Positions 609-56,457 of a DNA stretch of 64,000 bases are shown in pieces. How positions within the stretch are numbered: the stretch's first letter is position 1; each line of letters starts with the position of its first letter. The DNA comes from an uncultured Desulfospira sp. (GTDB taxonomy: Bacteria > Desulfobacterota > Desulfobacteria > Desulfobacterales > Desulfobacteraceae), in the NCBI GenBank assembly GCA_963663165.1, contig OY760175.1, positions 5,504,001 through 5,568,000 on the forward strand. Direction: 5' to 3'. A program made the position numbers and the translations under genes. The notes under the pieces are model-generated. The model searched no databases, was not told where the DNA came from, and was given only the letters and a program-made list of their open reading frames with translations.

Positions 609-774
609 GGTGTTTCCATATCCCCTGAATATCCTATGGGAACTGGGTTTAAAATAATAAGCTTTATCTCCAATTATGTAGCGTGTTTGATTATGTTGTG
701 AGTTTTATTCATTTTTATTCAAAAAGATTTTTCAAATCTTTCATTTTATTCGTATAATTCCAAATCATATGCAT

Positions 775-850
775 AGAAAAAGCCCGGAGTAGCCCCTCCG
801 GGCTTTGATTGTGAACTCCCGTCGATAGCCGGAGAAGCCCACACACACAG
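775..850 (-). ncRNA. Candidate small RNA divergent from the RIT leader gene
   Basis: Minus-strand TTGCAG...TGATATAGA promoter-like sequence; ends in hairpin AAAGCCCGGAG-GGGCTA-CTCCGGGCTTTTT; similar layout at 53062-53142. Confidence 0.5.
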
Positions 851-901
851 TTATATTTCTATATCATTTTCCGGTTATCTGCAATACCGGAAAAATCTAA
901 A

Positions 902-1288
902 ATGCTTTTAATTCCAAATACATGCCGATGGTGCCATTTCGTATTTTTTGTTTGCAGGTTCTGCTGGAGAGGGCAGGCCTATTGTTGCAGGGACTGCCGT
1001 AAGGCCGGAATCCTCAGAAACAAAAGAGAAGCACAGCGACGATACCGCCAGACCGAGAAGGGGAAAAGACGGCATCGGGAAGCCGAGAACCGGCGTCGGC
1101 ATCGAAAAAAAATTCAAGAGACAAAAAACATGGATGATACAGCTTCCACAGTGCTGCCTGCTTGGTGTAGGACAATAATATTGTGGATTTTGTTTCAGAT
1201 TCAGGGCCTTCCAATCAAACCATATTGTCAGTTCTGCGGCTCTTCAGGTCAAGTCGTCACACAATTTCCCCGGCGGGGATATGGATAA
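902..1288 (+). CDS. Cys-rich putative zinc-binding protein, homolog of 52563-53033
   Basis: CxxC..CxxCWRGQxYCCxxC, YRQTEKGK and C-terminal CxFCG..QFPRRGYG shared with the second copy. Confidence 0.8.
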   Translation: MLLIPNTCRWCHFVFFVCRFCWRGQAYCCRDCRKAGILRNKREAQRRYRQTEKGKRRHREAENRRRHRKKIQETKNMDDTASTVLPAWCRTIILWILFQIQGLPIKPYCQFCGSSGQVVTQFPRRGYG

Positions 1289-1310
1289 ACGTAAAAACTG
1301 GAGGCGCGGC

Positions 1311-1721
1311 ATGGTAAAAAAAGAAATCCTGAACCCTTCAAGGGTGCGTTGTATCAAAGGAGGATTTAGTTTTATCCCCCATCGGTTTCTTACGGGTGGA
1401 TTTTTGCGAGCATTAAGCCGGGACGAGTTGTTATTGTATTTTTTCCTGGTTCTGGCCGGTGACCGCAACGGATTAAGTTTTTACAGTTATGATAAAATAT
1501 GCACCCTGCTAAAAATGCAACTGGACCAGTACATTGAAGCTCGGGATGGATTGATGGAAAATGATCTGATTGCCTTTGACGGCACCATTTACCAGGTGCT
1601 TTCCTTACCGGCCAACCTTATACAATCTGCTGTACAAAAAAAATCTTCCCTGAACAGCCGTCAACCTGAATCAGTTGGAAAAATTTTGAGCAAACTGGTT
1701 ATGGAGGCCGATCATGGTTGA
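1311..1721 (+). CDS. Small wHTH-like accessory protein, homolog of 52178-52600
   Basis: GGAGG RBS before ATG 1311; FSFIPHRF, LLYFFLVLAGDRNGLSFYSYDKIC, DLIAFDG..QVLSLP shared with the second copy; fold is inferred. Confidence 0.8.
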   Translation: MVKKEILNPSRVRCIKGGFSFIPHRFLTGGFLRALSRDELLLYFFLVLAGDRNGLSFYSYDKICTLLKMQLDQYIEARDGLMENDLIAFDGTIYQVLSLPANLIQSAVQKKSSLNSRQPESVGKILSKLVMEADHG

Positions 1722-2631
1722 GCAGACACCCAAAAGTCCGCCCGGTTATGATCTGGATCAGATCCGCCGGGATTATCTGGACCATATGCTTAAAATCAAG
1801 GAAAGCTCTCCTTCTCAAACCTGTTGCAGGACCAAAATTATCAAAGCGTTTGACAGTTATCTGCAAACATCGGGAGTCTCACTGGTCAATATAAACATAG
1901 GGCATGTTGATGATTTTCTGGCAAGGTTCAATGCCCCATATGCAAAGAGTACCCAGGGGGTATACCGTTCCTGTTTTCGAGGCTTTTTGCACTACCTGTA
2001 TAATGAACGGCATTTGATCCAACAGAATTTAGCCCCGCTTGTGACCGGTCCGCCAATGTTTGCTCAAGTCAAGCCTCCTAAATTTTTAAGACCCGGTGAA
2101 GTCCGTCAGTTATTTGATCATTTGCCCTGTGCAACATCCAAAGAGCTTCGTGTCTATGCACAGGTTCACCTGGCTTATTATCTTGGATTGCGCCCCATTG
2201 AAATCAGCCGCCTTACTCTGGACGATATCTGTTTTGCCAAAGGACTGCTAAACCTGGAAAACACAAAAAATGCAAAGCCCCTTCAATTGCCCATTCCCGA
2301 TGAAGTTATCAAAGCAATCACCGCTTATATCGTTGGAGGCAGGCCTAAAAGTCAGTCTCGCTCTCTTTTTTTAACCAGCCATTGCCCACCTTACAGAGCT
2401 GTAAGTGCCTGGCTCACCAGGCACGATTTAACAAAGGCGTTGCGGGCTGCCGGTCTTCCCGGTACAGGATATTGGCTGCGCCACACCTTTGCACAAAACA
2501 TGCTGGAAGCAGGTGCCGGCATTTTTGAAATCAAAGAAATGATGGGGCATTCCATCATTGATTCCACAAAAGTATATCTAAGTATCCACAAGGAATTGAT
2601 GCGCCGGGTGTTGTTCGATGAAACCGTTTAA
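1714..2631 (+). CDS. Tyrosine recombinase, RIT gene 1
   Basis: LGLRPIE, WLRHTFA, MGHSIIDSTKVY. Confidence 0.9.
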   Translation: MVEQTPKSPPGYDLDQIRRDYLDHMLKIKESSPSQTCCRTKIIKAFDSYLQTSGVSLVNINIGHVDDFLARFNAPYAKSTQGVYRSCFRGFLHYLYNERHLIQQNLAPLVTGPPMFAQVKPPKFLRPGEVRQLFDHLPCATSKELRVYAQVHLAYYLGLRPIEISRLTLDDICFAKGLLNLENTKNAKPLQLPIPDEVIKAITAYIVGGRPKSQSRSLFLTSHCPPYRAVSAWLTRHDLTKALRAAGLPGTGYWLRHTFAQNMLEAGAGIFEIKEMMGHSIIDSTKVYLSIHKELMRRVLFDETV

Positions 2632-3592
2632 AAGCTTTTTGGCCACAGAGATGGAAAACTTTATTGTTTACCGGCAAGGACTGGGATACAGTTGCCATAT
2701 GCTCCGGTGGGCCTTGCTTACCTTTGACGATTTTTTAATGAGGCAGCCGGATCTCTCAGACATTTGGATGCCCCATTTTTATATCACCTTTAAAAATGAG
2801 ATTGGCCTTGAGCCCTCCGGCGTAGCCAGCATTCTAAATGTAGTTCGAGGCTTTTTTGATTATCTGAAACGGCAGCGGATAAATCTTGATAACCCTTTGA
2901 AAGATGTGACCGCTCCGGCCCGGCGCACCTTCATCCCCTTTATATTCTCACCGGAGCAGGTAGAAATGTTACTGGGGGTGGTATGCGGACGGATCCGGCA
3001 AACCCCTATGCGGTTCCTTAAAGATTACAGTGAATATCTGGTGATCCTTCTGCTTGCCCGCTGTGGGCTGAGGATGAATGAACCCTTGCGCCTGAGATTG
3101 AAAAATTACCGGCCGGATGAAAAGACGATTTACATAGAGAAAACCAAGTTCAAAAAGGACCGTCTTATCCCTATTCCAAAATCAACTGCCATGCAGATTG
3201 ACAACTATCTTTCAACCAGGGCCGCTTTAATTGAAAACGATATGAATCCCTACCTGTTCATGGGGATAGGGGAAAACGGCTTGAACGATAACCGTATTCG
3301 CTCTGTTTTTCACGATGCTGTGCGTCAAATCGGGATCCGCCGCCCAAGGAAAATTATCGGCGACACGACCTTTGGGAAGCCCACTCCGCACTGTTTACGG
3401 CACTCTTTTGCCATTAACACCTTGAAGGCAGCCATTGCCCGGAAACAATCACCCCGGAATGTGCTGCCGGTGCTTGCCGGCTATATGGGTCATGTTGAGT
3501 ATAAATACACCATGGAATATTTGAAAGCAGTTGATGCTGAAAGCCGCGACAGCCTGTTCAAATTTACCACCGGCAGAAGGGATGAATCATGA
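2618..3592 (+). CDS. Tyrosine recombinase, RIT gene 2
   Basis: CGLRMNE, KTKFKKDR, HCLRHSFA, LAGYMGH..YTMEY. Confidence 0.92.
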   Translation: MKPFKSFLATEMENFIVYRQGLGYSCHMLRWALLTFDDFLMRQPDLSDIWMPHFYITFKNEIGLEPSGVASILNVVRGFFDYLKRQRINLDNPLKDVTAPARRTFIPFIFSPEQVEMLLGVVCGRIRQTPMRFLKDYSEYLVILLLARCGLRMNEPLRLRLKNYRPDEKTIYIEKTKFKKDRLIPIPKSTAMQIDNYLSTRAALIENDMNPYLFMGIGENGLNDNRIRSVFHDAVRQIGIRRPRKIIGDTTFGKPTPHCLRHSFAINTLKAAIARKQSPRNVLPVLAGYMGHVEYKYTMEYLKAVDAESRDSLFKFTTGRRDES

Positions 3593-4608
3593 ACCTGACC
3601 CGTTGCGTTGTTCAATTTTTTGACCAATACCTGCCTTATGTCAAAGGGTGCCGCCCCAATACGATCAAAAGTTACCGGGATACCATGCGCTTTTTTTTAC
3701 CGTTTGCTGCCGAATACCACAGCGTAAAGGTCAGTTCGCTCAATCTGGAACATATCACGGTAGAATTAATTTTGCAGTTTCTCAATGAGCTTGAATCCAA
3801 ACGGTCCAACACGGCTAAAACCCGGAACCAGCGCCTGGCCGTTTTAAAGTCTTTTGCCAAAATGATCCGTTTTATTTATCCCGAGCAACAAAAACTGACC
3901 AATGCGATCCTTGATATTCCCCGGAAACGAAGCCAACACAAGTTGATCGGATTTTTGTATCCCCAGGAGATCAATCAAATCCTTAATGCGGTCCAACTTA
4001 AAAGAAAGGACGGGTTCCGAGATTATACCCTTCTGTATCTATTATATGATACCGGTGCCAGGGCAACGGAAATCGCTACCCTTGAGATGGATTATTTTGA
4101 TTATGAAAATCAAACTCTGGCGATTCTTGGGAAGGGTAACCGATATCGACAAGTTCAGTTGCTTGGGAAAACAGTAGAGCTTATGCATCAGTATATTGAA
4201 GAACATCGCAATACGCCAATCCATCCGTTTAAAAAAAGGCTGTTCATCAACCAAAGAGGAACAAGCTTGACCCGCCACGGTATCAACCGGATCTGTAAAA
4301 ACTACCTTGAACAGGCTTTACCGGCAAAGCGGACAGCGACCATGCACCCCGTCCATAGCTTCCGTCATTCGTGTGCCGTTCGAATGCTCTCAGAGGATCG
4401 GCCTTTATCTGAAATTAAGAATCGCTTGGGGCATTCTAATGTCAAATCCACAATGGTTTACTTAAAGCTTGATCTAGGCCAGAAGCGACATTTACAAGAG
4501 AACTTCATCCAGTTCACCAAACAGCACCTGAAATCTGATCCGAAAATTGAGGAGTTGATCCAGTGGGAAAACAAGCAAAACGTTCTTGAGTGGCTGGATA
4601 GTCTATAG
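3589..4608 (+). CDS. Tyrosine recombinase, RIT gene 3
   Basis: TGARATE, GKGNRYR, HSFRHS, LGHSNVKSTMVY. Confidence 0.93.
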   Translation: MNLTRCVVQFFDQYLPYVKGCRPNTIKSYRDTMRFFLPFAAEYHSVKVSSLNLEHITVELILQFLNELESKRSNTAKTRNQRLAVLKSFAKMIRFIYPEQQKLTNAILDIPRKRSQHKLIGFLYPQEINQILNAVQLKRKDGFRDYTLLYLLYDTGARATEIATLEMDYFDYENQTLAILGKGNRYRQVQLLGKTVELMHQYIEEHRNTPIHPFKKRLFINQRGTSLTRHGINRICKNYLEQALPAKRTATMHPVHSFRHSCAVRMLSEDRPLSEIKNRLGHSNVKSTMVYLKLDLGQKRHLQENFIQFTKQHLKSDPKIEELIQWENKQNVLEWLDSL

Positions 4609-4801
4609 ATCCTTACAGACTTCATCACCAGCACTCCTCAGGGCAAACTGTAGCTGTTTATTATGTTTAGTGATTTGTTGCAAATTTGTCATACCCTTGA
4701 TAACCAACTGTTTATTTGAACGATTTTGACTTACGGCATTACGGCGCCCAAACCACGGTCAATCAAGGCTTCAGGACCGCTCGCAACATAACTCCAAAAA
4801 A

Positions 4802-4886
4802 TTGGACTTGGGACTTGGGATATGGGACTTGGGGATTGCGGCATCCACGGCCTCCCCAAGTCCCATATCCCATATCCCAAGTCTCA
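4802..4886. repeat. Palindrome of heptamer tandem repeats (GGGACTT/GGGATAT)n...(ATATCCC/AAGTCCC)n
   Basis: Read directly; related copy at 10431-10508. Confidence 0.85.
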
Positions 4887-5094
4887 ACAATATACATTAA
4901 AGAATTTACAAACAATGTCCAAATGCCATGCCGGATTCTAAATCCGGTTAGCCCTGGTAAATATCCGTGACAGCCTTGACGGGAACTGGCGGTTCTGATA
5001 TACGCACTTTCCTGCGGCTTCCACTGTTTGAAATGTTTCAGGGGAACGCATCACCGCATATTGGATGTAAAATGCCGTTAAATCAGGGGTAGCC

Positions 5095-38905: not shown

Positions 38906-39362
38906 CGGTTTCACCTGCCGAATGATCCCGGCGAAGATACGGGGTTTCCACGTTCCACACTATTGCCAATTAGTGGATGACTTAGGCCTGCCCTCTGCAC
39001 CGGCGGCGCAACATCTCACGCGGCAGTTAGGAAACCTGCATCCTGACCGCTCACCTTTTGGTCCAAGCTTACCAGCCTCTTTAGCTTGTTCTCCCTGACG
39101 GTACTTACGGAACATTCAACTACTTTGACCATATCATCCAAACCCTTGCCCTCACCCGGATTGAGGCTTCCAGGAGGGTATCTGCCTCACGGCTTCCACC
39201 CCTTCCACAGTTGCGGAATTCGGTACGTTGTCGGTTGGGCTTCACACCGTTGCCGGATGCACCGACCACCGCATGCCACCTAGGGTACCGGCAGGAGAAT
39301 GCCGGGTTTGGTCAGGACCGACTGGCCCGCCAAACAGCCAATAATGCGACTTCGTGTCGCAC
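38906..39362 (-). mobile_element. Group II intron 5' fragment (copy A, 457 bp)
   Basis: Starts GTGCGACACGAAGTCGC on minus strand; near-identical to 62063-62519. Confidence 0.8.
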
Positions 39363-43825: not shown

Positions 43826-45205
43826 GGGCCTCAGAAAAATTAATATCCACAATTCCATAGTCTGAATTCTGATTTCTATAGACAACATGGAATCGATAGT
43901 TTATGGTCAACATGGAAGATTACATAAAAAATACAGGAGGACCATGTTTGATCATTCTAAGCACAATTTACCCAAAACTATATCGGAATTAACGCCACCA
44001 CTAAAGGATTTTCTGAATACCACTCGAAGCAAATTAAAAGGCCATGAACGGCGCCAATTCATGGCACGCGTTGTCTCCCTTATGGGGCACGGCGGACAAC
44101 TAAAGGCTGAAAGAGAACTGGGTTGGGATCGGAAAACAATAATCAAAGGGCGACGGGAAATAGAAAGCGGAGTTACCTGTGTTGATAATTTTTCCGGACG
44201 AGGCCGGAAATCGTGTTTAGAACATTTTCCGAATTTAAAAGAGGACATAACTCGTATTGTAAACCCTATATGTCAGACTGATCCTACATTCCGTACCCAG
44301 AATTTATATTCCCCAATATCTGCGAATGAAGTATTCCGTCGATTAGTTGACGACATGGGATATGACCCTGAGAATATGCCAACAGTACGGACTCTATCCA
44401 CCATAATGAATAAATTGGGTTTTAAACTGAAGAAGGTCGCCAAAGCCAAGGTAAAAAAAAATTCCTGAAACAGACATCATTTTTGAATATGTGCATAGGA
44501 CAAACCAACTAGCCGATGAAACAGATGGCGTTTTACGTATCTCAATGGACGCAAAAGCCACTATTAAAATAGGGCCTTATTCCCGAGGCGGATATAGTCG
44601 TTGCAATCTTAAAGCGGCGGACCATGATTTTAAACCCGATTCCCTTTTGAAACTTTTCGGTATCAACATACCTGCTCTGGATGAAAATTATATGTACTTC
44701 ACTGAAAGCAACATCACCTCTGATTTCATGATTGATGCGCTGGAATCACTCTGGCCTTCTTTGAACGCAAGATTCGCCCCACATACACTGGTGATCAATC
44801 TTGATAATGGGCCGGAAAATAGTAGCCGAAGGAGCCAATTCATTAGTCGCCTCGTGGACTTTGCCAAATCAGCATTTGTAAATATTAGTTTGGTGTACTA
44901 TCCCCCGTACCACAGTAAATACAACCCAATAGAGCGAGTTTGGGGTGTTTTGGAAAATCATTGGAAAGGCGAATTGCTGAACAAAATTGAAAAGGTTCTC
45001 GGTCTATGTCGAACAATGACATGGAAAGGAGAAAATCCTGTCGTCAAATTAATCAAAGGTGTTTACCCGACAGGGGTACGTTTGGTCAAGTCCGCCGTGA
45101 ATAATATAGAAAACAAAATTATTCGGATTCCAGGGATTGAAAAATGGGCTGTTGATATTCCATGCTATGAGGAATGAATTGTGGGTTTTAATTTTACCAC
45201 ATCCC
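43826..45205 (+). mobile_element. ISAzo13-family IS
   Basis: Imperfect IR GGG..AAAATTAATATCCACAATTC / GAATTGTGGGTTTTAATTTT..CCC; TAA duplication. Confidence 0.88.
43945..45177 (+). CDS. ISAzo13 transposase in two frames joined at A9 (44453-44461)
   Basis: RGRK, QTDPTF, ISMDAKA..G.YSRGG, DNGPEN, YYPPYHSKYNPIER; -1 shift gives KKIPETD. Confidence 0.88.
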
Positions 45206-45254
45206 TAAATTCCCATGTATTACCCGATCAATCTAATCATGGGAGTTGGAAAGG

Positions 45255-47897: not shown

Positions 47898-48098
47898 GGG
47901 ATGGCCAGCTTTTAAAAGTGTAACGCCTATCCCCTATATTCATAACGAAATAATGTAACGACCAGATACCCCGCTGCCACACCCTGCTAAAAAATTATAA
48001 AAATCATACCCCGCATGCCGACCCCGCCGGTAGACCCCGCCGCTGACTTATTCAAAATTTGCTACATATAATCTCCGTGATTCGAATCTTGGAGAAAA

Positions 48099-48449
48099 AT
48101 GATGGCAAAGAATTCTCGTGGAAAACGCCCTTGCTCTATTTGCCGAAAATGGTTTGCTCCTGATGTAAGACAAAAAGGCCGACAGAGAACATGCAGTCCG
48201 GTTTGCCAAAATGAGCTTCATCGAAGGCAATGTGAAAACTGGAACAGGAAAAACAAAGCGGTCTCCATAAATAATTACCTGGCAAAGAAAATTGAAAAGG
48301 CTCAAAACCTTCAAACATCCGGGAAATTGCCTGTTTTGCCGCTGGAAGTTATTGAAACAGAATACGGTATCAAGCCGGCAATTATCGTCGAATATCTGGT
48401 TGCCCAGGTTATCTGTCATACCAAAGAAAAAATTCGAGAATTCCCATAA
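48099..48449 (+). CDS. Small Cys-rich putative zinc-finger protein
   Basis: GGAG RBS; CSICRKWF..QRTCSPVC + basic helix. Confidence 0.7.
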   Translation: MMAKNSRGKRPCSICRKWFAPDVRQKGRQRTCSPVCQNELHRRQCENWNRKNKAVSINNYLAKKIEKAQNLQTSGKLPVLPLEVIETEYGIKPAIIVEYLVAQVICHTKEKIREFP

Positions 48450-49090
48450 ACACCTCTGACTAATCGAATATTGATTTCAAGAGACAAGGTTATGTTAACC
48501 TCTTGTAATATTAAGATATACAAACAGAGTAATCGAATTTTGATTCTAAGAGACATCATGCGCATAAGTTGTTGATAATATATATAGATACAAACAGAGT
48601 AATCAGTATTCCAGTTCAAGAGGCAACTGACAGCCGACCCTGGCCGGTGATATAAAAAGGCATCTGAAATTCTAAAAATAAGGAGATGTCTCATGGCAAA
48701 CAGGTTTTCATCCCGGGAATTATTTGAACTGAGGAACAATATCCCTGTGGATATGCTGATCAGGGATCATTTTGTTATCGCCGGTGATCAAGGTCACCAC
48801 CTTTGCCGGCAACGAACCGTCCCCACCTGTGATATATTGACTTGTCAGGGCTTTTCGCAGGTGTAATATTTGAGGGAAGATACCATTCTCATTTGTATCG
48901 ATAATTTGCAACACAATCAGCTAAAACAAGATATATTAATGGAATAGCGCCATAGCAATCAATTTGGTTGCAGTAAAGCACCTGCGGTTGGAAGAACACG
49001 CTCACCAACAGGCGTCAATCCCGATTTTGGAAGTAAAAAAGCCGGGTTTTATACGAGGACGTATAAAACCCGGCAGATGTGAAGAGATGG

Positions 49091-49879
49091 TTATTGGGGT
49101 ATGGACTGGGGATTAGTAGTGTTCGTTGTGTTGGGACCTTCCGTTCGATAACTGAGTCCGTCCCGGATATTAATGATGTGAACATTGTGCATCAATCGAT
49201 CGATAATGGCATGAGTTACAACCGGATCTCCCAGAGTCGTCCCCCAATCCTCAAGACTGATTGAAGATGTGGCAATAAAGGCGGTATCGTCCTGGCAGAC
49301 GCTGATCAAATCCAGCAGCAGGCTGGGATATTCCGGCTTTGTGCGGATACCGCCCACATTATCTATGATCAGAAGATCAAAACGGCTTAAGCCGGCGACC
49401 ACCTCATCGGTGGATTCGTCAGCCAATGACGTATACAGCATGGCCAGAAGTTTTTGCAGGGAAAAAAATCGAACCTTATAACCCGCACGGCAGGCCTGGT
49501 CGCCAAGGGCTGAGGCAATATGAGTTTTGCCCGTGCCGGTTTTCCCAAAAATAAGCAGCGGCTGCTTTCGATCCACAAAGGATAGCTCCATCAGATCTTT
49601 GAGGTGCTCTACATTCAGGCTTGGCTGGAAGTTAAAATCAAAGTTATCAAAGGTCATGTTTCTGGGGAAATCCGCTGTTTTTAGCCGCTTTTCAAGGGAT
49701 CGGTGCTTTCTTGCCTTCATCTGTACGTCCACGATGTCGGCCAGGAACGCCAAATGACCGGATTGATTTTTCTGCGCCTTGGCAAGGGCCTGCTCCAGAT
49801 ATTGGGCCATATCCTTGAGATAAAGCTTGCGCAGTTTCTTTTTAACCTGGTCGCTTAAGTTTTCATTCATCCTTGCCAT
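49091..49879 (-). CDS. istB: IS21 helper ATPase IstB
   Basis: TFDNFDFNFQP, GKTGTGKTH, LLIIDN, AIIDRLMH, G.SYR. Confidence 0.92.
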   Translation of the reverse strand: MARMNENLSDQVKKKLRKLYLKDMAQYLEQALAKAQKNQSGHLAFLADIVDVQMKARKHRSLEKRLKTADFPRNMTFDNFDFNFQPSLNVEHLKDLMELSFVDRKQPLLIFGKTGTGKTHIASALGDQACRAGYKVRFFSLQKLLAMLYTSLADESTDEVVAGLSRFDLLIIDNVGGIRTKPEYPSLLLDLISVCQDDTAFIATSSISLEDWGTTLGDPVVTHAIIDRLMHNVHIINIRDGLSYRTEGPNTTNTTNPQSIPQ

Positions 49880-51365
49880 CCATTGTTTTTCTGTTAATCA
49901 GGTGGTCATACCTTTGTGGGTTATCCTGCTCCACTGAACAGGATTTCAAATAGCTCCGGGTGTTGTTGGGCAGACCTTTTCCGGCTTTTGTTTTGTTTGA
50001 AGCTTTAATGTTTTTCCCCTGGATGATACGCAGGACGGCATCAGCACTAAATGAGTCAAACCGCGTGGCATGAGCTAATGCCCCTGAGACCACATCCGCA
50101 CCATAGCGGTCGGCATATTTGAGGATACGGCCCATATGGTACCCGGCAGCGCTTTTCCGGGTTTCTTTCAATCCGTTATAATAGACCTGCGCCACCTCAC
50201 CCAATCTCAAAAAGGCATCTTTGAGCAATTGACTCTGGCCTGTCATCTTCCTGTACAGGGCTTCATGTTCAGGCAACACCTGCCTGTCTTCTTGAGTGTA
50301 AACATGCCGGCAATCCATCGTTTCATCACACCATATTTCAATGTGATCACGGAACAAACGGACCTGGACATAACGGCCTATCAGTTCAGGATTGGCAGAG
50401 TATCGTTTTTTGTCGATGGTGACACAAAAATCAACGTTAACAAGTCGACGTACTTCCTTAAAAAATTGATCCGTTTTATTCCATGGCACAGGCTTTAACA
50501 GACTTTTTTCCCTTGCCAGGCGATCCACAGGCCTTTCCCGGGTGGTACCGTGGATACGGACATTGGCTGTGTTCGCCCGCCAGGCATCGGCCTTGTTATT
50601 GAGATCCTCAAGATCAATAAATTCTTTGCCTCTAAGGAAATTGTCTTCAATATACCGGAACGGCCGCTCTACCTTGCCGTGTCGTTCCTTTTTGCCGGGT
50701 AGAAGGATGACGATCTCAAAGTCATACTCCTGGGCAAACCGTTTAAATACCGGATTGATCCAAACGGTTCCGGGGCCCGTGTGCCTGCCCACCGTGGTCA
50801 TATTGTCATAGGTGATTTTGTGGGGAACCGCCCCGATCTCGTCAAACGCCTCTTCATGCAACCGGATCACTGATTCTATAGTTTCATCAAAAAAGTGACG
50901 TATAAATATCCAACGACTGAAGCACAATACAAAAGATCCGGTATGCACCACCACGCGTTGTCCACCCATGTACACACTATGAGGACTCCAGTCCATCTGC
51001 CCCTCATCTCCAGGGGCATGATCAATTGGAGGCCTGGGCACCTTCAAGCCTTTGGGCCGGATTATTCTGATATACTCCTTGAGGATGGAGTATCCGCCCG
51101 TGTACCCCAACAACGTGATCTCTTCCAACACCCGAACCCCGCTGAGATGTTTTTCTTTTACAAGGTAACCGATTTTGGCCTTGTAAGGATCAAGTTTGCT
51201 TTTGCGGGGACTGGTTTGAGGCGCATTAATAACATTGTTGCAGCCCAATGCCCTGCGCACTGCCTTGCGGCTGTGCCCGGTCTGTTTTGCTGTCTGACGG
51301 ATGGATGCTGTGCGCCCAAAGACTTTACGAATACGTTCCTGTTCCTTTTCACTCAACCGGCTCAT
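49863..51365 (-). CDS. istA: IS21 transposase IstA
   Basis: SKLDPYK, GYTGGYSILK, PGDEGQMDW, YDNM, GKVER, HGTTRERP. Confidence 0.93.
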   Translation of the reverse strand: MSRLSEKEQERIRKVFGRTASIRQTAKQTGHSRKAVRRALGCNNVINAPQTSPRKSKLDPYKAKIGYLVKEKHLSGVRVLEEITLLGYTGGYSILKEYIRIIRPKGLKVPRPPIDHAPGDEGQMDWSPHSVYMGGQRVVVHTGSFVLCFSRWIFIRHFFDETIESVIRLHEEAFDEIGAVPHKITYDNMTTVGRHTGPGTVWINPVFKRFAQEYDFEIVILLPGKKERHGKVERPFRYIEDNFLRGKEFIDLEDLNNKADAWRANTANVRIHGTTRERPVDRLAREKSLLKPVPWNKTDQFFKEVRRLVNVDFCVTIDKKRYSANPELIGRYVQVRLFRDHIEIWCDETMDCRHVYTQEDRQVLPEHEALYRKMTGQSQLLKDAFLRLGEVAQVYYNGLKETRKSAAGYHMGRILKYADRYGADVVSGALAHATRFDSFSADAVLRIIQGKNIKASNKTKAGKGLPNNTRSYLKSCSVEQDNPQRYDHLINRKTMDGKDE

Positions 51366-52185
51366 GGTGCCCTCCTATCAACTCATTGAGCCGTTTCATC
51401 CGGGCACCGGCCCGCCCTATAAAGTCTTTAAGGGCGCAGACCTTGGAACCATTGATCGTGCCGCTGCCAATGCAGTTGTTCAGCTTGGACATTTTTGAAA
51501 GAATGGCATCAATAATCAAATAATAATTTTCCTTGTCCCGGCTTACGGACTCCAGCGCTTGCCTGGGAGATTCAAGCAGGTGGCGCCTGGCTCCGGGATC
51601 ACTGGTCTTGCACCACAGGTCCACCAGACGGTTCACCTCCCGGGTTTTAAGGTTGTGTTTTTGAATACAAAGAGAAAAATCGGCCTGGGTTGCAGGCTGC
51701 AACCGCGCCAGTGACGGACCGACCCCGGCAGGGAGCAGCCCAAGTTTGATATCGTGGACAATTTCCGGGGTCAGGCTGCGGATCATGGAAAGCCGTCGGC
51801 AAACCCAGCTTTTATGCCGCTCAAGGAGTATCGCCGCTTCAACCTGATTGAGCCCTTCTATTTCTACAAGTTCCCAGACCACCAGGGCCTCCATGATCGT
51901 GGAAAACCCATCCGGGCGGTTCAGAAGGTAGAGCAATGCCTTGGCTTCTGCAGCACTTTTTTTCAACACAGCCACTTTAAGCGTCTTCATGCCAAGAAGG
52001 CCTGCACAGCGATGCCGCTTGAAACCGTCTATTAAAATATGGCAACCTCCTTGCTCAACCGCAACAACAGCCGTTAATTGGCCATGCTTGACTAATGAAG
52101 CCGCCATCTTTTCCTGGGCACCGGCGTGGACCGGCCGCAGGAATCCCAGACGTAAATCCAATTGGTCCGGACGCAGGTTAATCAT
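51349..52185 (-). CDS. ParB N-terminal domain + HTH protein
   Basis: SLVKHGQLTAV..LIDGFKR, Q.EAA.LLERHKSWVCRRL. Confidence 0.85.
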   Translation of the reverse strand: MINLRPDQLDLRLGFLRPVHAGAQEKMAASLVKHGQLTAVVAVEQGGCHILIDGFKRHRCAGLLGMKTLKVAVLKKSAAEAKALLYLLNRPDGFSTIMEALVVWELVEIEGLNQVEAAILLERHKSWVCRRLSMIRSLTPEIVHDIKLGLLPAGVGPSLARLQPATQADFSLCIQKHNLKTREVNRLVDLWCKTSDPGARRHLLESPRQALESVSRDKENYYLIIDAILSKMSKLNNCIGSGTINGSKVCALKDFIGRAGARMKRLNELIGGHHEPVE

Positions 52186-52600
52186 TTGGACCTCCGGCTA
52201 TATTGAGGCTTTTTTGAAAAATCTCCCCGATTGAGATAAGGCCACTGCCGCCGGTGGGTTGCTTAGGCGCCTTGGACGTCGGTGCTGCAACATTTTTTTT
52301 GGGAAGGGAAAGCACTTGAAACAGTCGGCCGTCAAAGGCTATGAGATCTTTATCAATGAGCCCGTTCCTGGCCTGGATATATTCGTCCAGGCGGATGGCC
52401 GTCAATGAACAGATTTTATCATAGCCGTAATAAGACATTCCCTGACGATCTGCCACCATCACCAGAAAAAGGTACAGCACAAGCTCCTGGTGGTTCAGGC
52501 TGCCCCAATACCCCTGGCGGATAAACCGGTGGCTTATCCATGCGAAACTGCCGTTAATTTTTCTAATTCGATGGTCCTTCAACGGTTCCTTGGTAATCAT
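52178..52600 (-). CDS. Small wHTH-like accessory protein, homolog of 1311-1721
   Basis: GGAGGG RBS; FAWISHRF, LYLFLVMVADRQGMSYYGYDKIC, DLIAFDG..QVLSLP. Confidence 0.82.
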   Translation of the reverse strand: MITKEPLKDHRIRKINGSFAWISHRFIRQGYWGSLNHQELVLYLFLVMVADRQGMSYYGYDKICSLTAIRLDEYIQARNGLIDKDLIAFDGRLFQVLSLPKKNVAAPTSKAPKQPTGGSGLISIGEIFQKSLNIAGGPND

Positions 52601-53033
52601 TTTTACCCTCCTTGGAAATATAATGATGAAAATTGTCGCCTGAATACCGTCTGCCATATCCCCGCCGGGGGAATTGATCTACAATCAGACCTTTTCTTCC
52701 GCAAAAACAGCAGCATGGATGGGAAGACGGAGGCGTTACCCGAAGACTATCATTGGATTTGGAGGGTGTTGAAGTGTCATCATCCACGGTTTTTTGAGAA
52801 TTTCTTAATCTCCGCTCTTTTTCCTGCCGACGATGGGCTAACTTACCTTTTTCAGTTTGTCGATATTTCTTCTGGGCGTTACGGTGAGCTTCTCTTTGAG
52901 CAGTTTCCCGACAGGATTCACAGCAATAAATCTGTCCACGCCAGCAACTGTGGCAGATATAAAAAATGCTGCCGCATCGTTTACACTGGATTTCTTTTAA
53001 TAAAACGATCTCCACATTTTCCGTTCTTGCCAT
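52563..53033 (-). CDS. Cys-rich putative zinc-binding protein, homolog of 902-1288
   Basis: CKRC..CHSCWRGQIYCCESC, YRQTEKGK, CCFCG..DQFPRRGYG. Confidence 0.82.
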   Translation of the reverse strand: MARTENVEIVLLKEIQCKRCGSIFYICHSCWRGQIYCCESCRETAQREAHRNAQKKYRQTEKGKLAHRRQEKERRLRNSQKTVDDDTSTPSKSNDSLRVTPPSSHPCCCFCGRKGLIVDQFPRRGYGRRYSGDNFHHYISKEGKNDYQGTVEGPSN

Positions 53034-53061
53034 AAAACGGAAGCCGTGATTATATGAAGAT

Positions 53062-53142
53062 GTTGGGTAGCTTCCGTATTTTATATGGATGTCTGCTTTT
53101 TGAAGGCTCGAAGCGGCCTACTTCGAGCCTTCCTTATTTTTC
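53062..53142 (+). ncRNA. Candidate small RNA divergent from the IS21-ParB leader gene
   Basis: TTGCCA (53027)-N17-TTATAT promoter-like; hairpin GAAGGCTCGAAG-CGGCCTA-CTTCGAGCCTTC then T-rich tail. Confidence 0.5.
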
Positions 53143-53592
53143 AAATCCATCCAAGAAACAAAACCAAATTCAAAGAAAAAAAGGAAGAAAATATATTTTT
53201 AAAATATGGGATGAAGAAGAGACAAAGTAAAAAGGATGGAGGCTTTGTTACCGGCTAAAGGGGTGGCCTGCTTCATCGCCATAGGTGGGGACGGTTACGA
53301 CCGGCGGTAACAATCATTTACAGATTCCATCCAAGATCAGGGATGGCTACTTTCGTTTTCTATGCCCTTTGTGCAATGAATTTCAAACCGCTGTAAATCC
53401 AGCCACGAACCTGGCCAGGTGCTTCAGATGCGAAAAGAATTTTAATACCATCGACCTTGTCATGAAAATCAAGGGTTATGGCTTCCGGGATAGTGTTTTG
53501 TTTTTGAAACAAATAAATACGGCCCCCCAGGTTCAGACCGCAAAATTGACGGCTCTTGCTGCTATGGTCGGCAGACCCATGCCGGCAGGGCA

Positions 53593-54156
53593 GTGAATAT
53601 GGAACGGTTGCTTGAGCTTGAAACCCTGATTGGTCGCAACCAGGAATGTTTTTACAAAATCGGCCGGGCCTTGAAGGAAATTCGAGATAACCGTTTGTAC
53701 AAACAGGCTTTGTTTGAGTCATTTGAAACATATACCAGGCAGCGATGGGATATGGGCAAGGCTTATGCCTACCGCCTGATCAGAGCCTATGAAGTGATCT
53801 ACAATTTGTCGCCAATTGGCGACAAGCTACCTGCCAACGAATCCCAGGTCCGTCCCCTGACTCAAATGGACTCCATAGAACAACGCCGTATCTGGAGGGA
53901 GATTATAAACAGCGGCATGGAACTGACCGCACAAAATATCAAAAAATTTATTGAGGCCCGGAAAACGGCTCCGGCAAGTAGACCGGATCTGACAAATAAA
54001 ATTTCAAATGAATACATGGCTGTTGTAAAGGCAATGCTTGAGCAGGTCCGTGTGGCACAACATGATCATTGGCAGCAGACCTCCCGCCAAGCCGCATTGT
54101 TGTGGCACCGGGTCATATACGAAAAGATCATATCAAAGGGGGCAGATAATGGATGA
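53593..54156 (+). CDS. Helical accessory protein of element X
   Basis: IGRALKEIRD.RLY..FE.Y...W......YRLI, LPANESQVRPL; overlaps neighbours. Confidence 0.75.
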   Translation: MNMERLLELETLIGRNQECFYKIGRALKEIRDNRLYKQALFESFETYTRQRWDMGKAYAYRLIRAYEVIYNLSPIGDKLPANESQVRPLTQMDSIEQRRIWREIINSGMELTAQNIKKFIEARKTAPASRPDLTNKISNEYMAVVKAMLEQVRVAQHDHWQQTSRQAALLWHRVIYEKIISKGADNG

Positions 54157-55813
54157 CCTAAGCATTGACGACCGCTTCCACTTACTGCTGCACAAAAAAA
54201 TCATGAACAAAACTGGATCTGCCAAGAGAAGATCCAAAAAATATTACAAGGACCAGTACAAAAAAAACGGGATTATCCCGCCTCCCCTTTTACTGGTTGA
54301 AAAAGGAATTATGGATGGCCGCAAGTGCAGCGGGCGGCCCAGAGTCATAGACGAACAAACCCAAAGGCGGTTTATTGAAATGGTCAAGGCGTCATGCGAC
54401 CCCTCATCCCAGGGGTTCATTTTTATCACCCGGAGAGCCAGGACCATTAAAAATTACCACTGCTGGCTTGAGGAAGAGCTGGGGAAAAAAATCAGTCTCC
54501 CTGCACTTTGGCGATGCGCCAAAAGGGAGAATCTCAAATTTTACCTGGAAAAAGAGGACGATCAGGAGCCGTCACCGGCACGTTATACCTTCAAATCGGT
54601 TACGGTGTTTACCTTGATCCAGGTTGACGGTTGCAAGTTCCAATATTTAAGAATCAGAGATGAACATGGCAACTGGCAGAAACCACGGGTAATTGAAATA
54701 TTCGATACCGGCTCCAGGAAACTGTTTATTATGGAATTCTATTTTACCGAAAGCAATCTGAATTCTGTGGATCTTTTTACCCGTTTTTTGTTGTGCACAC
54801 CTTTTCCTTTGATAACAATCGGTATCAGGCCTGATCGGGCAAAGGGATTTTTAAATCTCAAGCGTCCCATTAATGCGATTAACCTTGCGCATTCTACGCC
54901 GGGCGGTTTTTATTTGGCACCGGATTTTTCAAGGGCGCATTCCCCCAAAGATAAGGCGCATCTGGAATCTTCACACCGAAGCCTGCATAATTTTGAAATA
55001 CGAATTATCAAAGCGTTTGAGAGCAGGATTGTGAAAACCGTTACCGAATATGACTTCAAGCGGGGAAGAAAGGAAAAAGTTACTGTAACCCTTCTTGATA
55101 TCACCCTTGATGAATTGAGGAACAGCACTGTGCTCAGCCAATACCGCAACGAACACAATCATACACAACATTATTTTACCGAAGACGGCGTAGTCAGTGC
55201 CTGGGTGCCGGCACAAAAGTTTGATGATTTTTTATCAAATCAGACAGACACCCTGAATTTTACCCCGGAGCAGGTTCAGGAATATATGAAATACGGTTAC
55301 AGGAAAATCAAAGCCACGGTATCCAAAAATAGAACCATCCGCCATGACAAAAGGGATTATTATGTGACCAGTGGTGCAGACCGGTTCAGCAGGCATAAAA
55401 GTACACCGGTAAAAATATCCAGATACAGGGACAAACTTTTTATCTTTGAGCCCAGTGAAGACGGCATCCTGATAGGCGAAGCCATTGCAAAAAAGCCGTT
55501 TGACAGCCCGCCGTCTCCAGCGACCGCTCCTGTACCCGACGAACTCGACACCATTATCGCTCTTTTGGAAAAGCACAATATGGCCGTTGACCGGCCTATT
55601 TTAATCGAAGTTTACCATAAAGGCCTCACCTTGTCCCTGGCGGAGCAAGTGCTTCACCATAATCAATCAAGGTACGCAGATTACATGAAAAAAATGAACC
55701 AGCCTGAGGAACGTAAAAATCAAGCCTTATTTAATGCTTTTATGCTTGATTGCCAAAAATCGTTAAATACGAATCAGGTGGCCACTTATGCATCCCACGG
55801 AGATATGCCATGA
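54149..55813 (+). CDS. Divergent DDE integrase/transposase of element X
   Basis: SGRPR, IQVDGC, EIFDTGSR, IRPD, PKDKAHLESSH. Confidence 0.75.
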   Translation: MDDLSIDDRFHLLLHKKIMNKTGSAKRRSKKYYKDQYKKNGIIPPPLLLVEKGIMDGRKCSGRPRVIDEQTQRRFIEMVKASCDPSSQGFIFITRRARTIKNYHCWLEEELGKKISLPALWRCAKRENLKFYLEKEDDQEPSPARYTFKSVTVFTLIQVDGCKFQYLRIRDEHGNWQKPRVIEIFDTGSRKLFIMEFYFTESNLNSVDLFTRFLLCTPFPLITIGIRPDRAKGFLNLKRPINAINLAHSTPGGFYLAPDFSRAHSPKDKAHLESSHRSLHNFEIRIIKAFESRIVKTVTEYDFKRGRKEKVTVTLLDITLDELRNSTVLSQYRNEHNHTQHYFTEDGVVSAWVPAQKFDDFLSNQTDTLNFTPEQVQEYMKYGYRKIKATVSKNRTIRHDKRDYYVTSGADRFSRHKSTPVKISRYRDKLFIFEPSEDGILIGEAIAKKPFDSPPSPATAPVPDELDTIIALLEKHNMAVDRPILIEVYHKGLTLSLAEQVLHHNQSRYADYMKKMNQPEERKNQALFNAFMLDCQKSLNTNQVATYASHGDMP

Positions 55814-56457
55814 AAGAGGATTTTATCAGTGATAAACGAAGGGTCTCATACCTGTCTGCTACTTATAACAGGATATACAGGGGTCAAAGCGTACTCATTG
55901 AAGGGGATTTTGGCGCAGGCAAAACTCGTTTTTTAAGACTGCTGCGGCCTAAAAAGCTCCATGCCGTATGGGTCGAGTCTCTGTTCAACATCCATGAAAC
56001 CCTGGCATCCATACTTAAAGAACTGAATTATGAGACCTCCGCCACTTACCGCCGGACTCCCCAGTACCTGAAAACGATCTGCAACCTATCCAATTGTTTT
56101 ATCATCATAGATGAAGCCAACGACCTGGACTCCCGGGTTTGGCCATATCTCAAACGAATTATTGATGCCGGTGTCCCCATCGTATTTGCAGGGCTCCCCA
56201 AGGTCAGAACCTATTTGAGCCGGAATCATCCCGATATACTCAGCCGGCTCAAAACTCTGATTTTATATCCCATAGAGGTCGAGGACTTCATTGAAAAATA
56301 CAAAGATATCCAGCATGAAGCAGTTGAACAGATATATATGGCCGTCAAAGGCGACATGAGAAAATTTAAAGAAATCTGTACAGACTGTCAGGACAGGGCA
56401 AAGGAGTTGAACCACAACTTTGTTGATATCAATCTTGCCCTGGAATTTATATCCTGA
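55810..56457 (+). CDS. AAA ATPase (TnsC/MuB-like); last 5 codons displaced to 60667-60684
   Basis: GDFGAGKT, IIIDEA, IVFAG, ILSR; original end ..EFISDLPPQ* reconstructs across the insertion. Confidence 0.85.
   Translation: MKEDFISDKRRVSYLSATYNRIYRGQSVLIEGDFGAGKTRFLRLLRPKKLHAVWVESLFNIHETLASILKELNYETSATYRRTPQYLKTICNLSNCFIIIDEANDLDSRVWPYLKRIIDAGVPIVFAGLPKVRTYLSRNHPDILSRLKTLILYPIEVEDFIEKYKDIQHEAVEQIYMAVKGDMRKFKEICTDCQDRAKELNHNFVDINLALEFIS

What the first reader, a model, noticed from the sequence alone, without database searches (positions are those of the whole stretch)
674..1721. The same two-gene leader module heads a RIT element and an unrelated IS21 element
Seen: 902-1288 and 1311-1721 are clear homologs of 52563-53033 and 52178-52600 (shared CWRGQxYCC, YRQTEKGK, QFPRRGYG; HRF, YDKIC, DLIAFDG..QVLSLP), in the same order and inside each element's mapped ends. 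One copy leads a tyrosine-recombinase trio, the other leads parB-istA-istB (DDE). Established: RIT elements are usually described as three recombinases only and IS21 as istA-istB. Inference: a portable control, targeting or replication-aid cassette that works across recombination chemistries.
Basis: partly seen in the sequence, partly recalled or inferred. Interest (0 to 1): 0.88.

Follow-up and report, generated by a model that had tools for sequence, protein, structure and literature searches.

The report
Shared control head on unrelated transposons
The same small front section, made of a structured leader, a zinc-ribbon gene and a winged-helix gene, sits at the head of several unrelated kinds of jumping DNA, so it looks like an exchangeable unit that probably controls or assists whichever mobility genes follow it.

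Summary
A1/A2 share 42% identity (E 1e-30) and B1/B2 share 46% (E 1e-42). Both pairs lie inside units that move as a whole: a 4.1-kb RIT element in 8 copies and a 4540-bp IS21-family element in 5 copies, each of the 5 with a 7-bp target duplication.

The pattern is wider and more modular than reported. In 80 related loci, B sits directly upstream of a RIT trio (25), IstA/IstB with or without a ParB-like gene (48), or a third transposon layout (1). Five contigs end too early to tell and one locus is interrupted.

- **Position 1** holds a zinc-ribbon protein of type A, Z, Zn116 or T.
- **Position 2** holds B, or a DnaG-type CHC2 zinc finger.
- **A's 150-nt leader** (a hairpin, an inverted repeat and a third arm copy at the ribosome site) travels with A across all three element classes.
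- **Leader direct repeats** change with the gene in position 2.

No named family, paper or annotation describes these proteins.

My best reading (about 0.45) is an exchangeable left-end control head whose proteins bind their own leader and set expression of the downstream mobility genes. A role as a transposition cofactor, or in recruiting replication, is not excluded. The function itself is untested.

The parts
668..673 (.). CTCCAA flank on the left of the RIT element. It repeats at 4792-4797 and is a possible crossover or target core.
   Evidence: Most of the 8 copies carry it on both flanks; copy 5 lacks it on the left.
674..4791 (+). RIT element (RIT1), made of leader, A1, B1 and RitA/B/C. 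It is one of 8 copies in the genome.
   Evidence: 99.5-99.9% identity over at least 4128 bp; junctions; end-repeat motif at both ends.
674..901 (+). RIT1 leader. It holds the end repeats (674-685, 691-702), a promoter-like site (729-758), a GC hairpin (782-803), CCGGA arm copies at about 827-839, 867-874 (inverted) and 886-896, and then the ATG at 902.
902..1288 (+). A1, a 128-aa zinc-ribbon protein with a basic helical hairpin (position 1).
   Evidence: There are 8 invariant Cys. The fold was modelled on A2, where pLDDT exceeds 90 for residues 10-80. No Pfam or NCBIfam family matches.
1311..1721 (+). B1, a 136-aa winged-helix protein (position 2). Its stop codon overlaps the RitA start at 1714.
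1714..4608 (+). RitA (1714-2631), RitB (2618-3592) and RitC (3589-4608), three overlapping tyrosine recombinase genes.
   Evidence: Phage_integrase, E 1e-17 to 7.5e-30.
4780..4791 (.). Right terminal repeat of RIT1, CTCGCAACATAA.
48773..53312 (-). IS21-family element of 4540 bp: leader, A2, B2, ParB-like gene, IstA and IstB. It has TG..CA ends and 7-bp duplications AAATGAT at 48766-48772 and 53313-53319. It is one of 5 copies.
53016..53312 (-). IS21 leader. It holds the terminal repeats, TTCTTC repeats, a 12-bp-stem GC hairpin (53102-53132), the inverted repeat ACGGAAGC..N..GCTTCCGT around a -10-like TCATATAAT, and a third arm copy ACGGAAA at the ribosome site.
52563..53033 (-). A2, the zinc-ribbon protein. 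The ORF runs from 53033, but the likely true start is the GTG at 53015.
52178..52600 (-). B2, a 140-aa winged-helix protein. Its stop codon overlaps the start of the ParB-like gene at 52185.
51349..52185 (-). ParB-like gene (278 aa). All family matches are below threshold.
   Evidence: TIGR04285 E 4e-7 at 29.6 bits, cut-off 315; PHROG ParB-like, E 6e-5.
49091..51365 (-). IstA (49863-51365) and IstB (49091-49879).
47902..48772 (+). Left part of the host transposon that the IS21 copy split. It holds a leader with CCCGCC/CCCCGC repeats, Zn116 (48099-48449, position 1), and the 5' end of a CHC2 zinc-finger gene (from 48693).
53313..56457 (+). Right part of that host transposon: the rest of the CHC2 gene (to 53596), a 187-aa gene, a 591-aa gene with no family match, and an AAA_22 ATPase.

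Best explanation
An exchangeable left-end control head. The unit consists of three parts:
- a structured leader;
- a small basic zinc-ribbon gene in position 1 (type A here; Z, Zn116 or T elsewhere);
- a small DNA-binding gene in position 2 (the winged-helix protein B here; a CHC2 zinc finger elsewhere).

It sits just inside the left end of a transposon, and the mobility genes follow in the same operon with overlapping stop and start codons. The proposed mechanism runs as follows. The position-2 protein binds the direct repeats of its own leader. The position-1 protein acts on the hairpin and inverted-repeat region just upstream of its own start codon. Together with an RNA or DNA structure that covers the ribosome site, they set how much of the downstream operon is made, so the element limits its own activity.

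Because the head carries both its target sites and its binding proteins, it can be placed in front of any mobility module. That would explain why it occurs on tyrosine-recombinase trios, on IS21 and on a third transposon type.

**Shown:** the anatomy, the co-mobility, the modular exchange, leader conservation with compensatory changes, and the match between leader repeat type and the position-2 gene.

**Inferred:** that the proteins bind the leader, and that the result is control of expression.
For: **Inside the mobile units.**

**One operon.** The B1 stop overlaps the RitA start. The B2 stop overlaps the start of the ParB-like gene. B and IstA overlap in Z-type elements.

**The leader is homologous across element classes.** Fifteen leaders (9 IS21-borne, 4 RIT-borne, 2 then unclassified) align with 61% mean column identity. 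One of the two, L027, proved to be the third class, and the same leader stands in the genome's own third-class element.
- The GC hairpin has 9 pairs, 96.7% of cells paired, and 4 pairs with changes on both sides.
- The inverted repeat has 7 pairs and 90.5% paired.
- Sliding the 3' partners by 1-3 columns drops pairing to 29-54%.
- A third arm copy overlaps the ribosome site and could pair with the second arm instead.
- Z-type leaders have a short hairpin that pairs the ribosome-binding site with a complementary stretch just before the ATG.

**The leader motifs are one-sided.** The CGGAAG arm motifs cluster in the leader at the left end and do not recur at the right terminus, with only scattered internal copies. 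This argues against a site needed at both ends.

**Leader repeats follow the position-2 gene.**
- In 25 unique B-bearing leaders, TTCTTC on the coding strand occurs at 8.3 per kb; 23 of 25 leaders have at least one. Downstream DNA has 0.42 per kb.
- CCCGCC/CCCCGC occurs at 0.32 per kb in those same 25 leaders.
- The 3 CHC2-bearing leaders have no TTCTTC and 5-7 CCCGCC/CCCCGC each.

**The folds suit nucleic-acid binding.** B's core is a winged helix. A is a zinc ribbon with two long basic helices.
Against: - No binding, transcript start or expression data exist. No RNA run was listed for this organism.
- The promoter position is unresolved. The consensus scan places one upstream of the hairpin in RIT1 and finds none on the coding strand in the IS21 leader.
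- B is far more conserved than is usual for a repressor: 36 invariant columns in 17 sequences of 45-81% identity.
- One natural in-frame fusion of B to IstA exists (L134). That fits a physical partnership with the transposase at least as well as it fits pure regulation.
- The link between repeats and the position-2 gene rests, on the CHC2 side, on only 3 element families, all from one genome.
- The window's own RIT1 leader has no exact TTCTTC. It has three copies of TTT[AC]TTC.
- The compensatory changes fit either an RNA helix or a palindromic protein-binding site. They do not distinguish the two.
Confidence: 0.45

Rival explanations
1. A transposition cofactor that does not depend on the recombination chemistry. 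The position-2 protein, bound to the left-end repeats, and the position-1 protein form a nucleoprotein complex. Each mobility machinery needs that complex in order to assemble at, or to distinguish, the left end, or to choose targets. This is comparable to an enhancer or accessory site, or to a small fourth protein of multi-recombinase elements.
For: - B always sits directly before the first mobility gene, with overlapping codons.
- There is a natural B::IstA fusion in L134.
- B is very strongly conserved.
- Passages of PMC5385486 and PMC10214605 report that the small proteins GinD, Srap and TnpC are needed for recombination in other multi-recombinase elements.
- Leader repeats change with the position-2 gene.
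Against: - One protein family would have to serve three unrelated machineries.
- The leader motifs occur only at the left end.
- RIT and IS21 ends share no sequence.
- The 5 IS21 target duplications share no obvious sequence.
- The fusion is a single case, and it lies in a decayed element.
Confidence: 0.27
2. A helper that recruits replication. The position-2 proteins resemble DNA-binding parts of replication-start proteins: B resembles the winged helix of initiator or DnaD-like proteins, and CHC2 is the zinc finger of DnaG primase. Bound to iteron-like repeats at the left end, they would recruit host priming or replication to copy the element out of its donor site. Any copy-out transposon could use that step.
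For: - The CHC2 protein passes the Pfam cut-off for Zn_ribbon_DnaG (27.1 bits against 24.9).
- B has weak matches to HTH_36 and to PHROG families named for DnaD-like helicase loaders and replication initiators (E 0.006-0.07). Foldseek rows include plasmid initiators (4pt7, 5kbj; E about 0.1-0.2).
- The leaders carry direct repeats.
- An IstA fused to a CHC2 and Toprim primase part lies in the same window at 45246-47897.
- Passages of PMC10214605 propose a copy-out route for a related class of multi-recombinase elements.
Against: - All of B's matches to replication proteins are below threshold.
- The winged helix is a generic fold, and the best Foldseek rows are CRP and MarR regulators.
- Neither B nor the small CHC2 protein has a catalytic domain.
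- It is not known whether RITs replicate during movement.
Confidence: 0.15
3. Cargo unrelated to mobility, for example an anti-defence or host-manipulating gene pair. It would simply ride at the front of several transposons and benefit them indirectly.
For: - Neither protein has a known function: sources call both 'hypothetical', and so do the protein-atlas clusters.
- Transposons do carry passenger genes.
Against: - The position is fixed at the operon head, with codons overlapping the first mobility gene, in 74 of 75 loci that have enough sequence. The 75th, L042, is interrupted.
- There is no context outside these three mobile-element types.
- PADLOC gives no hit for A, Z, T or B2. B1 has only a weak winged-helix hit (E 0.0027).
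- The leader is conserved together with gene 1.
Confidence: 0.08

Closest known systems
IS1 InsA and IS3-family OrfA, small upstream DNA-binding regulators of insertion sequences
   Same: They are small proteins encoded ahead of the transposase. They carry zinc-finger and/or helix-turn-helix parts, and are thought to bind the element's own left end or promoter and hold transposition down. They can also occur fused to the transposase, as B is in L134.
   Different: Here there are two separate genes. Neither shows sequence similarity to a named family. They are shared among elements with unrelated mobility enzymes, which is not known for InsA or OrfA.
GinD (GInt), Srap (SE) and TnpC (Tn554), small fourth proteins of elements with several tyrosine recombinases
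   Same: They are small proteins of unknown fold, encoded in the same operon as a recombinase set. Passages of PMC5385486 and PMC10214605 report that they are required for recombination.
   Different: Those genes lie after the recombinases, not before. They are described as having a C-terminal coiled coil or helix-loop-helix. They are not reported on DDE elements.
TnpB of IS200/IS605 and IS607 (recalled)
   Same: It is an accessory gene shared by insertion sequences whose transposases use different chemistries. This sets a precedent for a function that does not depend on the transposase.
   Different: TnpB is a large RNA-guided nuclease encoded after the transposase gene. The head described here is two small DNA-binding-type proteins plus a leader at the front of the operon.
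TniQ/TnsD target selectors of Tn7-like and Tn5053-like transposons (recalled)
   Same: They combine zinc-binding and helix-turn-helix parts, and they work with an AAA+ ATPase partner.
   Different: No TniQ family hit appeared in the Pfam scan of A or B. The proteins here are much smaller. They also occur on RITs, which have no ATPase.
Canonical RIT and IS21 elements
   Same: The mobility genes and ends of both window elements fit these families.
   Different: Passages of PMC10214605 list only RitA/B/C and inverted repeats for RITs. PMC3281130 mentions extra ORFs of unknown role in IS21 and IS66 elements only in general terms. No text I found describes this leader-gene head.

Membership tests
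RIT (recombinase in trio) element | Three adjacent tyrosine recombinase genes in the same orientation | tested here: met
   PF00589 hits at E 1.4e-23, 1e-17 and 7.5e-30 for 1714-2631, 2618-3592 and 3589-4608, which overlap each other.
RIT (recombinase in trio) element | Terminal inverted repeats, and evidence of movement as a unit | tested here: met
   The motif TTATGT[AT]G[CT]G(AG) is at both ends, and 8 near-identical copies exist. The repeat core of about 12 bp is shorter than the 34 bp quoted for the archetype in PMC10214605.
IS21 family | IstA transposase and IstB helper ATPase in tandem | tested here: met
   NF033546 scores 216.8 bits against a cut-off of 160. PF01695 scores 196.4 bits against a cut-off of 24.1.
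IS21 family | TG..CA termini with short target duplications | tested here: met
   The ends read TGTTACC...GATAACA, and 5 of 5 copies carry 7-bp duplications. The family's usual range is recalled, not checked.
Pfam HTH_36 (PF13730), for B | Score at or above the gathering cut-off of 25 bits | tested here: inconclusive
   B1 scores 16.6 bits and B2 scores 19.2 bits, both below the cut-off. Precomputed PF13730 is listed for part of the relatives and for 20-29% of members of two atlas clusters.
ParB/Spo0J/Noc, for the 278-aa gene | Score at or above the curated cut-off | tested here: not met
   TIGR04285 scores 29.6 bits against 315, and TIGR00180 scores 17.6 against 58.45. There is no Pfam hit. 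Only the N-terminal region looks ParB-like.
TniQ/TnsD target selector, for A or B | Match to the TniQ family model | tested here: not met
   No such hit at E <= 0.01 in the Pfam scans of A1, A2, B1 or B2.
GinD / Srap / TnpC auxiliary proteins | Sequence similarity, and a position after the recombinase genes | not tested
The position differs: B and A lie before the recombinases.
Known anti-phage defence proteins (PADLOC) | Match to a PADLOC model | tested here: not met
   No hit for A1, A2, B2, Zn116, T or Z. B1 has only a weak winged-helix hit (E 0.0027, 16.4 bits).
Rfam RNA families, for the leader | Match to any of 4227 covariance models | tested here: not met
   No match at E <= 1 in 52900-53350. 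There is no gathering-level match in either leader.

The most novel reading that the evidence does not exclude
The head is a left-end nucleoprotein module that mobility itself requires, whatever the recombination chemistry, rather than only a regulator. A cognate pair of iteron-like repeats and a small DNA-binding protein (B with TTCTTC repeats, or CHC2 with CCCCGC repeats), together with the zinc-ribbon protein, would do one of two things. It would either license assembly of the transposition complex or recruit host priming and replication so that the element is copied out of its donor site. Tyrosine-recombinase trios, IS21 and a third, unclassified transposon would then all depend on the same exchangeable helper.
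Probability: 0.3. Interest if true: 0.88.

Novelty: new variant of a known kind. Interest (0 to 1): 0.72.

Why it matters
Insertion sequences and RITs are usually defined by their recombinase genes alone. Here, a large unnamed family of small proteins always sits, in every context seen here, at the head of one of three unrelated mobility modules. That family is B, with 1741 clusters at 50% identity. It comes with interchangeable partners and a leader that moves with them.

- **Annotation.** If the head controls expression, it is a ready-made, transferable self-restraint unit for transposons. It also gives a new rule for annotating thousands of 'hypothetical' genes.
- **An open question.** If mobility needs the head, it points to a step common to tyrosine-recombinase and IS21 transposition. 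It would also make the untested mechanism of RIT elements open to experiment, because RIT1 and the IS21 element are both recently active in one genome.
- **A lead.** The survey uncovered a third, multi-copy transposon whose large protein matches no known family.

Tried and rejected
- **Complex of A with B** (complex prediction): no verdict. The score was below the mark in two runs, so this counts neither way.
- **RNA evidence**: no RNA holder was listed, only 6 contig-kept runs from 2 studies. I therefore laid no reads, and transcript starts stay unknown.
- **Structure searches for A:** Foldseek against the PDB gave no match with E <= 0.001. VIA-align wide gave a best Z of 2.9. A profile search against PDB sequences gave only weak basic-region matches to ribosomal protein L35 (E 0.06).
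- **Structure searches for B:** only generic winged-helix rows, E about 0.05 and weaker, and no PDB sequence relative.
- **Remote homology of A and Z:** hhalign gives probability 43% and E 2.5e-4 over the zinc ribbon only. This is suggestive but not established.
- **187-aa gene against the ParB-like gene:** no similarity.
- **Shared end sequences between the RIT and IS21 elements:** none seen.
- **Nested-insertion artefact,** meaning that A and B belong to a separate element that the RIT or IS21 landed in: rejected. The copies share exact outer boundaries, and the IS21 target duplications enclose the pair.
- **Fused long forms of B:** the 'longer' search found only proteins of 246-284 aa. At least three of these (P0026, P0095, P0117) carry N-terminal extensions that I read as out-of-frame overlap with the upstream gene.
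- **Motif TCTTTG[GA]AT:** it sits at a fixed distance upstream in 16 of 55 unique loci. It belongs mostly to A-type leaders and does not single out B.
- **CHC2 relatives in two other genomes** (L147, L148): my motif search did not locate the gene, so their leaders stay unchecked.
- **Literature:** three full-text searches and passages of three papers gave no description of this head.
- **Earlier findings of this scan:** two look-ups returned nothing.
Full report
**1.

A1 (902-1288) and A2 (52563-53033, minus strand) are 42% identical over 128 aa, E 1e-30. B1 and B2 are 46% identical over 137 aa, E 1e-42.

Pair 1 is followed by three overlapping Phage_integrase genes. Pair 2 is followed by three genes:
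- a 278-aa gene that is only ParB-like (TIGR04285 29.6 bits, cut-off 315);
- IstA (NF033546 216.8 bits, cut-off 160);
- IstB (PF01695 196 bits).

The family alignment of B supports the starts at 1311 and 52600. The leader alignment suggests that A2 starts at the GTG at 53015.

**2. Both pairs are inside units that move**

The window's genome holds 17 B genes. Comparing copies gives three units.

| Unit | Copies | Identity | Size and position |
|---|---|---|---|
| RIT1 | 8 | 99.5-99.9% | at least 4128 bp; window 674-4791 |
| IS21-family element | 5 | about 100% | 4540 bp; window 48773-53312 |
| Second RIT family (T3) | 4 | 99.9% | 4721 bp; elsewhere in the genome |

- RIT1 ends in TTATGT[AT]G[CT]G(AG) repeats and is flanked by CTCCAA on both sides in most copies.
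- The IS21 element has TGTTACC...GATAACA ends and a 7-bp target duplication in 5 of 5 copies.
- An uninterrupted sister copy elsewhere in the genome shows that the window's IS21 copy landed inside another transposon, in its CHC2 zinc-finger gene.

**3. What the two proteins are**

*B.* Its confident core, residues 43-116, is a winged helix. The whole-model mean pLDDT is 63. Foldseek returns only generic winged-helix proteins at E of about 0.05 and weaker: CRP, MarR and plasmid initiators. Pfam HTH_36 stays below its cut-off. The family is large and unnamed.
- The word-indexed search found 1974 clusters.
- The exhaustive profile search found 1741 clusters at 50% identity with E <= 1e-3, and 969 with E <= 1e-10. 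Nearly all of the best 150 listed are 80-260 aa long.

*A.* It has eight invariant cysteines. The model is a zinc-ribbon hairpin, two long basic helices and a C-terminal CxxC, with pLDDT above 90 for residues 10-80. It has no structural or sequence relative with a name. Its family has 149 clusters, all unnamed.

RefSeq annotates the equivalent genes on Caballeronia plasmids as 'hypothetical protein' ahead of istA and istB.

**4. Neighbourhoods**

A scan of one genome per species found 328 relatives of B, and the best 80 loci were kept. I classified their ORFs with the window's own proteins.

| What lies directly downstream of B | Loci (of 80) |
|---|---|
| ParB-like gene, IstA, IstB | 37 (24 are identical copies in one genome) |
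| IstA, IstB | 11 |
| RitA, RitB, RitC | 25 |
| Third layout (L027): 191-aa gene, 585-aa gene, AAA_22 ATPase | 1 |
| Contig ends within 500 nt | 5 |
| Interrupted | 1 |

No locus showed any other context.

In an even sample of 401 genomes of the phylum, 27 carry B. I fetched 14 regions, including the weakest matches. Wherever anything recognisable follows B it is again IstA/IstB, nearly always with a Z gene upstream, and some copies are decayed or carry nested RITs. Two regions show no mobility gene after B: L139 is a decayed B with in-frame stops, and in L135 nothing recognisable follows B.

**5. The head is modular, not a fixed pair**

Position 1 can hold four types of gene:
- A;
- Z, a zinc-ribbon family of 150-195 aa with LAKMDA repeats. 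Its link to A is weak: hhalign probability 43%;
- Zn116, at window 48099-48449;
- T, a cysteine-rich 202-aa protein found in T3.

Position 2 can hold B or a small DnaG-type CHC2 zinc finger (PF01807, 27.1 bits, cut-off 24.9).

Within this one genome I found these combinations.

| Combination | Copies |
|---|---|
| A + B + RIT | 8 |
| T + B + RIT | 4 |
| Z + CHC2 + RIT | 4 |
| A + B + ParB-like + IS21 | 5 |
| A + CHC2 + third layout | 6 (TG..CA ends, 5-bp duplications) |
| Zn116 + CHC2 + third layout | the window copy and sister copies |

Elsewhere there are further combinations:
- Z + B + RIT: L031, L085, L086;
- Z + B + IS21: 8 of the 80 loci (7 of them listed), plus most of the regions fetched;
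- A + B + third layout: L027.

The tree of B (57 rows) interleaves RIT and IS21 hosts. Well-supported branches force at least two changes of host type, but the base of the tree is unresolved. IS21-borne A2 is 57% identical to RIT-borne L037 A, yet only 42% identical to IS21-borne L041 A. The closest pair from different classes is about 57% identical, so the exchanges are old and repeated rather than one recent capture.

**6. The leader travels with gene 1**

The 150 nt upstream of A align across 15 elements with 61% mean column identity: 9 IS21-borne, 4 RIT-borne and 2 that were then unclassified. One of those two, L027, turned out to be the third class. The same leader stands in the genome's own third-class element.

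Its features, in order:
- pyrimidine repeats;
- a GC hairpin of 9 pairs, with 96.7% of cells paired and 4 pairs changed on both sides;
- an inverted repeat of 7-8 bp around a -10-like box, 90.5% paired;
- a third copy of the repeat arm at the ribosome site, which could pair with the second arm instead.

Sliding the 3' partners by 1-3 columns lowers pairing to 29-54%. The RNA of the IS21 leader folds with z = -5.8 against shuffles, and three others fold with z of -2.3 to -2.6. Z-type leaders have a short hairpin that pairs the ribosome-binding site with a complementary stretch just before the ATG. Rfam has nothing here.

The arm motifs cluster at the left end and do not recur at the right terminus.

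**7. Leader repeats follow gene 2**

| Leaders | TTCTTC on the coding strand | CCCGCC/CCCCGC |
|---|---|---|
| 25 unique B-bearing leaders (250 nt each) | 8.3 per kb; 23 of 25 have at least one | 0.32 per kb |
| 3 CHC2-bearing leaders (143-311 nt) | 0 | 5-7 each |

For comparison, the same 25 leaders have 0.48 TTCTTC per kb on the other strand, and downstream DNA has 0.42 per kb.

The CHC2-bearing leaders have these repeats whether gene 1 is A, Z or Zn116, and whether the mobility module is a RIT or the third layout.

Two cautions apply. The CHC2 side has only three families, all from one genome. RIT1's own leader has the variant TTT[AC]TTC three times and no exact TTCTTC.

**8. How it most likely works**

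The mobility genes have no spacing from the head that could hold a promoter of their own. The B stop overlaps the next start codon.

I therefore read the unit as a transferable control head:
- the leader provides insulation, a start signal and a structure over the ribosome site;
- the position-2 protein binds the leader repeats;
- the position-1 protein acts on the hairpin and inverted-repeat region;
- together they set the output of whatever mobility operon follows.

This is inference, and I give it 0.45.

Three facts keep a cofactor role open (0.27). B is unusually conserved. One in-frame B::IstA fusion exists. Small fourth proteins are known to be essential in other multi-recombinase elements (passages).

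A replication-recruiting role (0.15) is suggested by three things: the DnaG-type finger as the alternative to B, B's weak resemblance to initiator winged helices, and an IstA-primase fusion nearby. Unrelated cargo (0.08) fits the fixed position poorly, and there is no defence-family match.

**9. Known or new**

Passages of PMC10214605 give RITs only RitA/B/C and inverted repeats. PMC3281130 mentions unexplained extra ORFs in IS21 and IS66 elements only in general terms. Three full-text searches found no description of this head. The library lacks most subscription journals, including the 2013 RIT survey in Plasmid, which I could not read. ISfinder was not available either. A prior description there cannot be excluded.

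Accessory genes of transposons are a known kind. A leader-plus-genes head shared and reshuffled among three unrelated mobility systems is, as far as I could check, a new variant of that kind.

**10. Verdict**

Portability is shown, the 'pair' is really a modular head, and the function is untested.
- Interest is 0.72.

Noticed in passing
window 47902-48772 plus 53313-56457; intact relatives L143 (G000:C1:1874151-1878428) and L027: A multi-copy transposon of about 4.2-4.3 kb with TG..CA ends and 5-bp target duplications. It has 6 copies of one variant, plus a related Zn116 variant. Its 582-591-aa protein matches no Pfam, NCBIfam or PDB family, and it is paired with an AAA_22 ATPase and a 184-191-aa protein. 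This may be an unclassified transposase family with a Tn7/Mu-like layout; that comparison is recalled, not tested.
   Followed up: partly
window 45246-47897 (+): An 883-aa ORF fuses an IstA-like transposase (rve, Mu-transpos_C_2) to a CHC2 zinc finger and a Toprim domain, which together make a primase-like C-terminal half. The genome has two copies. No IstB gene lies next to it in the window.
   Followed up: partly
L134 6039-6980 (G384:C16): B is fused in frame to the N-terminal part of IstA. The ORF is then cut off by a RIT inserted in reverse orientation. RITs also sit inside IS21 elements in L022 and L141, so RITs may often land in these IS21 elements.
   Followed up: partly
L144 (G000:C1:2333441-2337516) and 3 sister copies: A fourth RIT family is headed by a Z-type zinc-ribbon gene and a CHC2 zinc-finger gene instead of B. 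Its leader holds four ACCCCGC(C) repeats.
   Followed up: partly
window 4798-4890, and flanks of 6 of 8 RIT1 copies: About 100 bp of palindromic GGGACTTGGGA-type repeat, plus further shared flanks, lie next to the right end of RIT1 in 6 of 8 copies. Either RIT1 prefers a repeated target, or that stretch belongs to a longer form of the element.
   Followed up: no
T3 element (L010 339-761, minus strand): A SEC-C motif and TPR protein (141 aa; PF02810, E 8.6e-10) is encoded divergently at the left end of the second RIT family. It is conserved in the T-type loci of other genomes.
   Followed up: no
window 39148-39306 and 62305-62463 (minus strand): Two group II intron D1-D4-7 matches (RF02012; 93.5 and 91.8 bits).
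   Followed up: no
window 43887-45177 (+): Two consecutive ORFs (193 and 228 aa) that look like a split transposase of another insertion sequence lie just upstream of the IstA-primase gene. I did not scan them against the family libraries.
   Followed up: no
L142 (NZ_CP049160.1 170833-181162): On a Caballeronia plasmid, the four-gene IS21 element (two hypothetical genes, istA, istB) lies right after a set of integrase, 546-aa hypothetical, tyrosine recombinase and small hypothetical genes. That set recalls GInt/SE-type elements. A TniQ-family gene follows.
   Followed up: no
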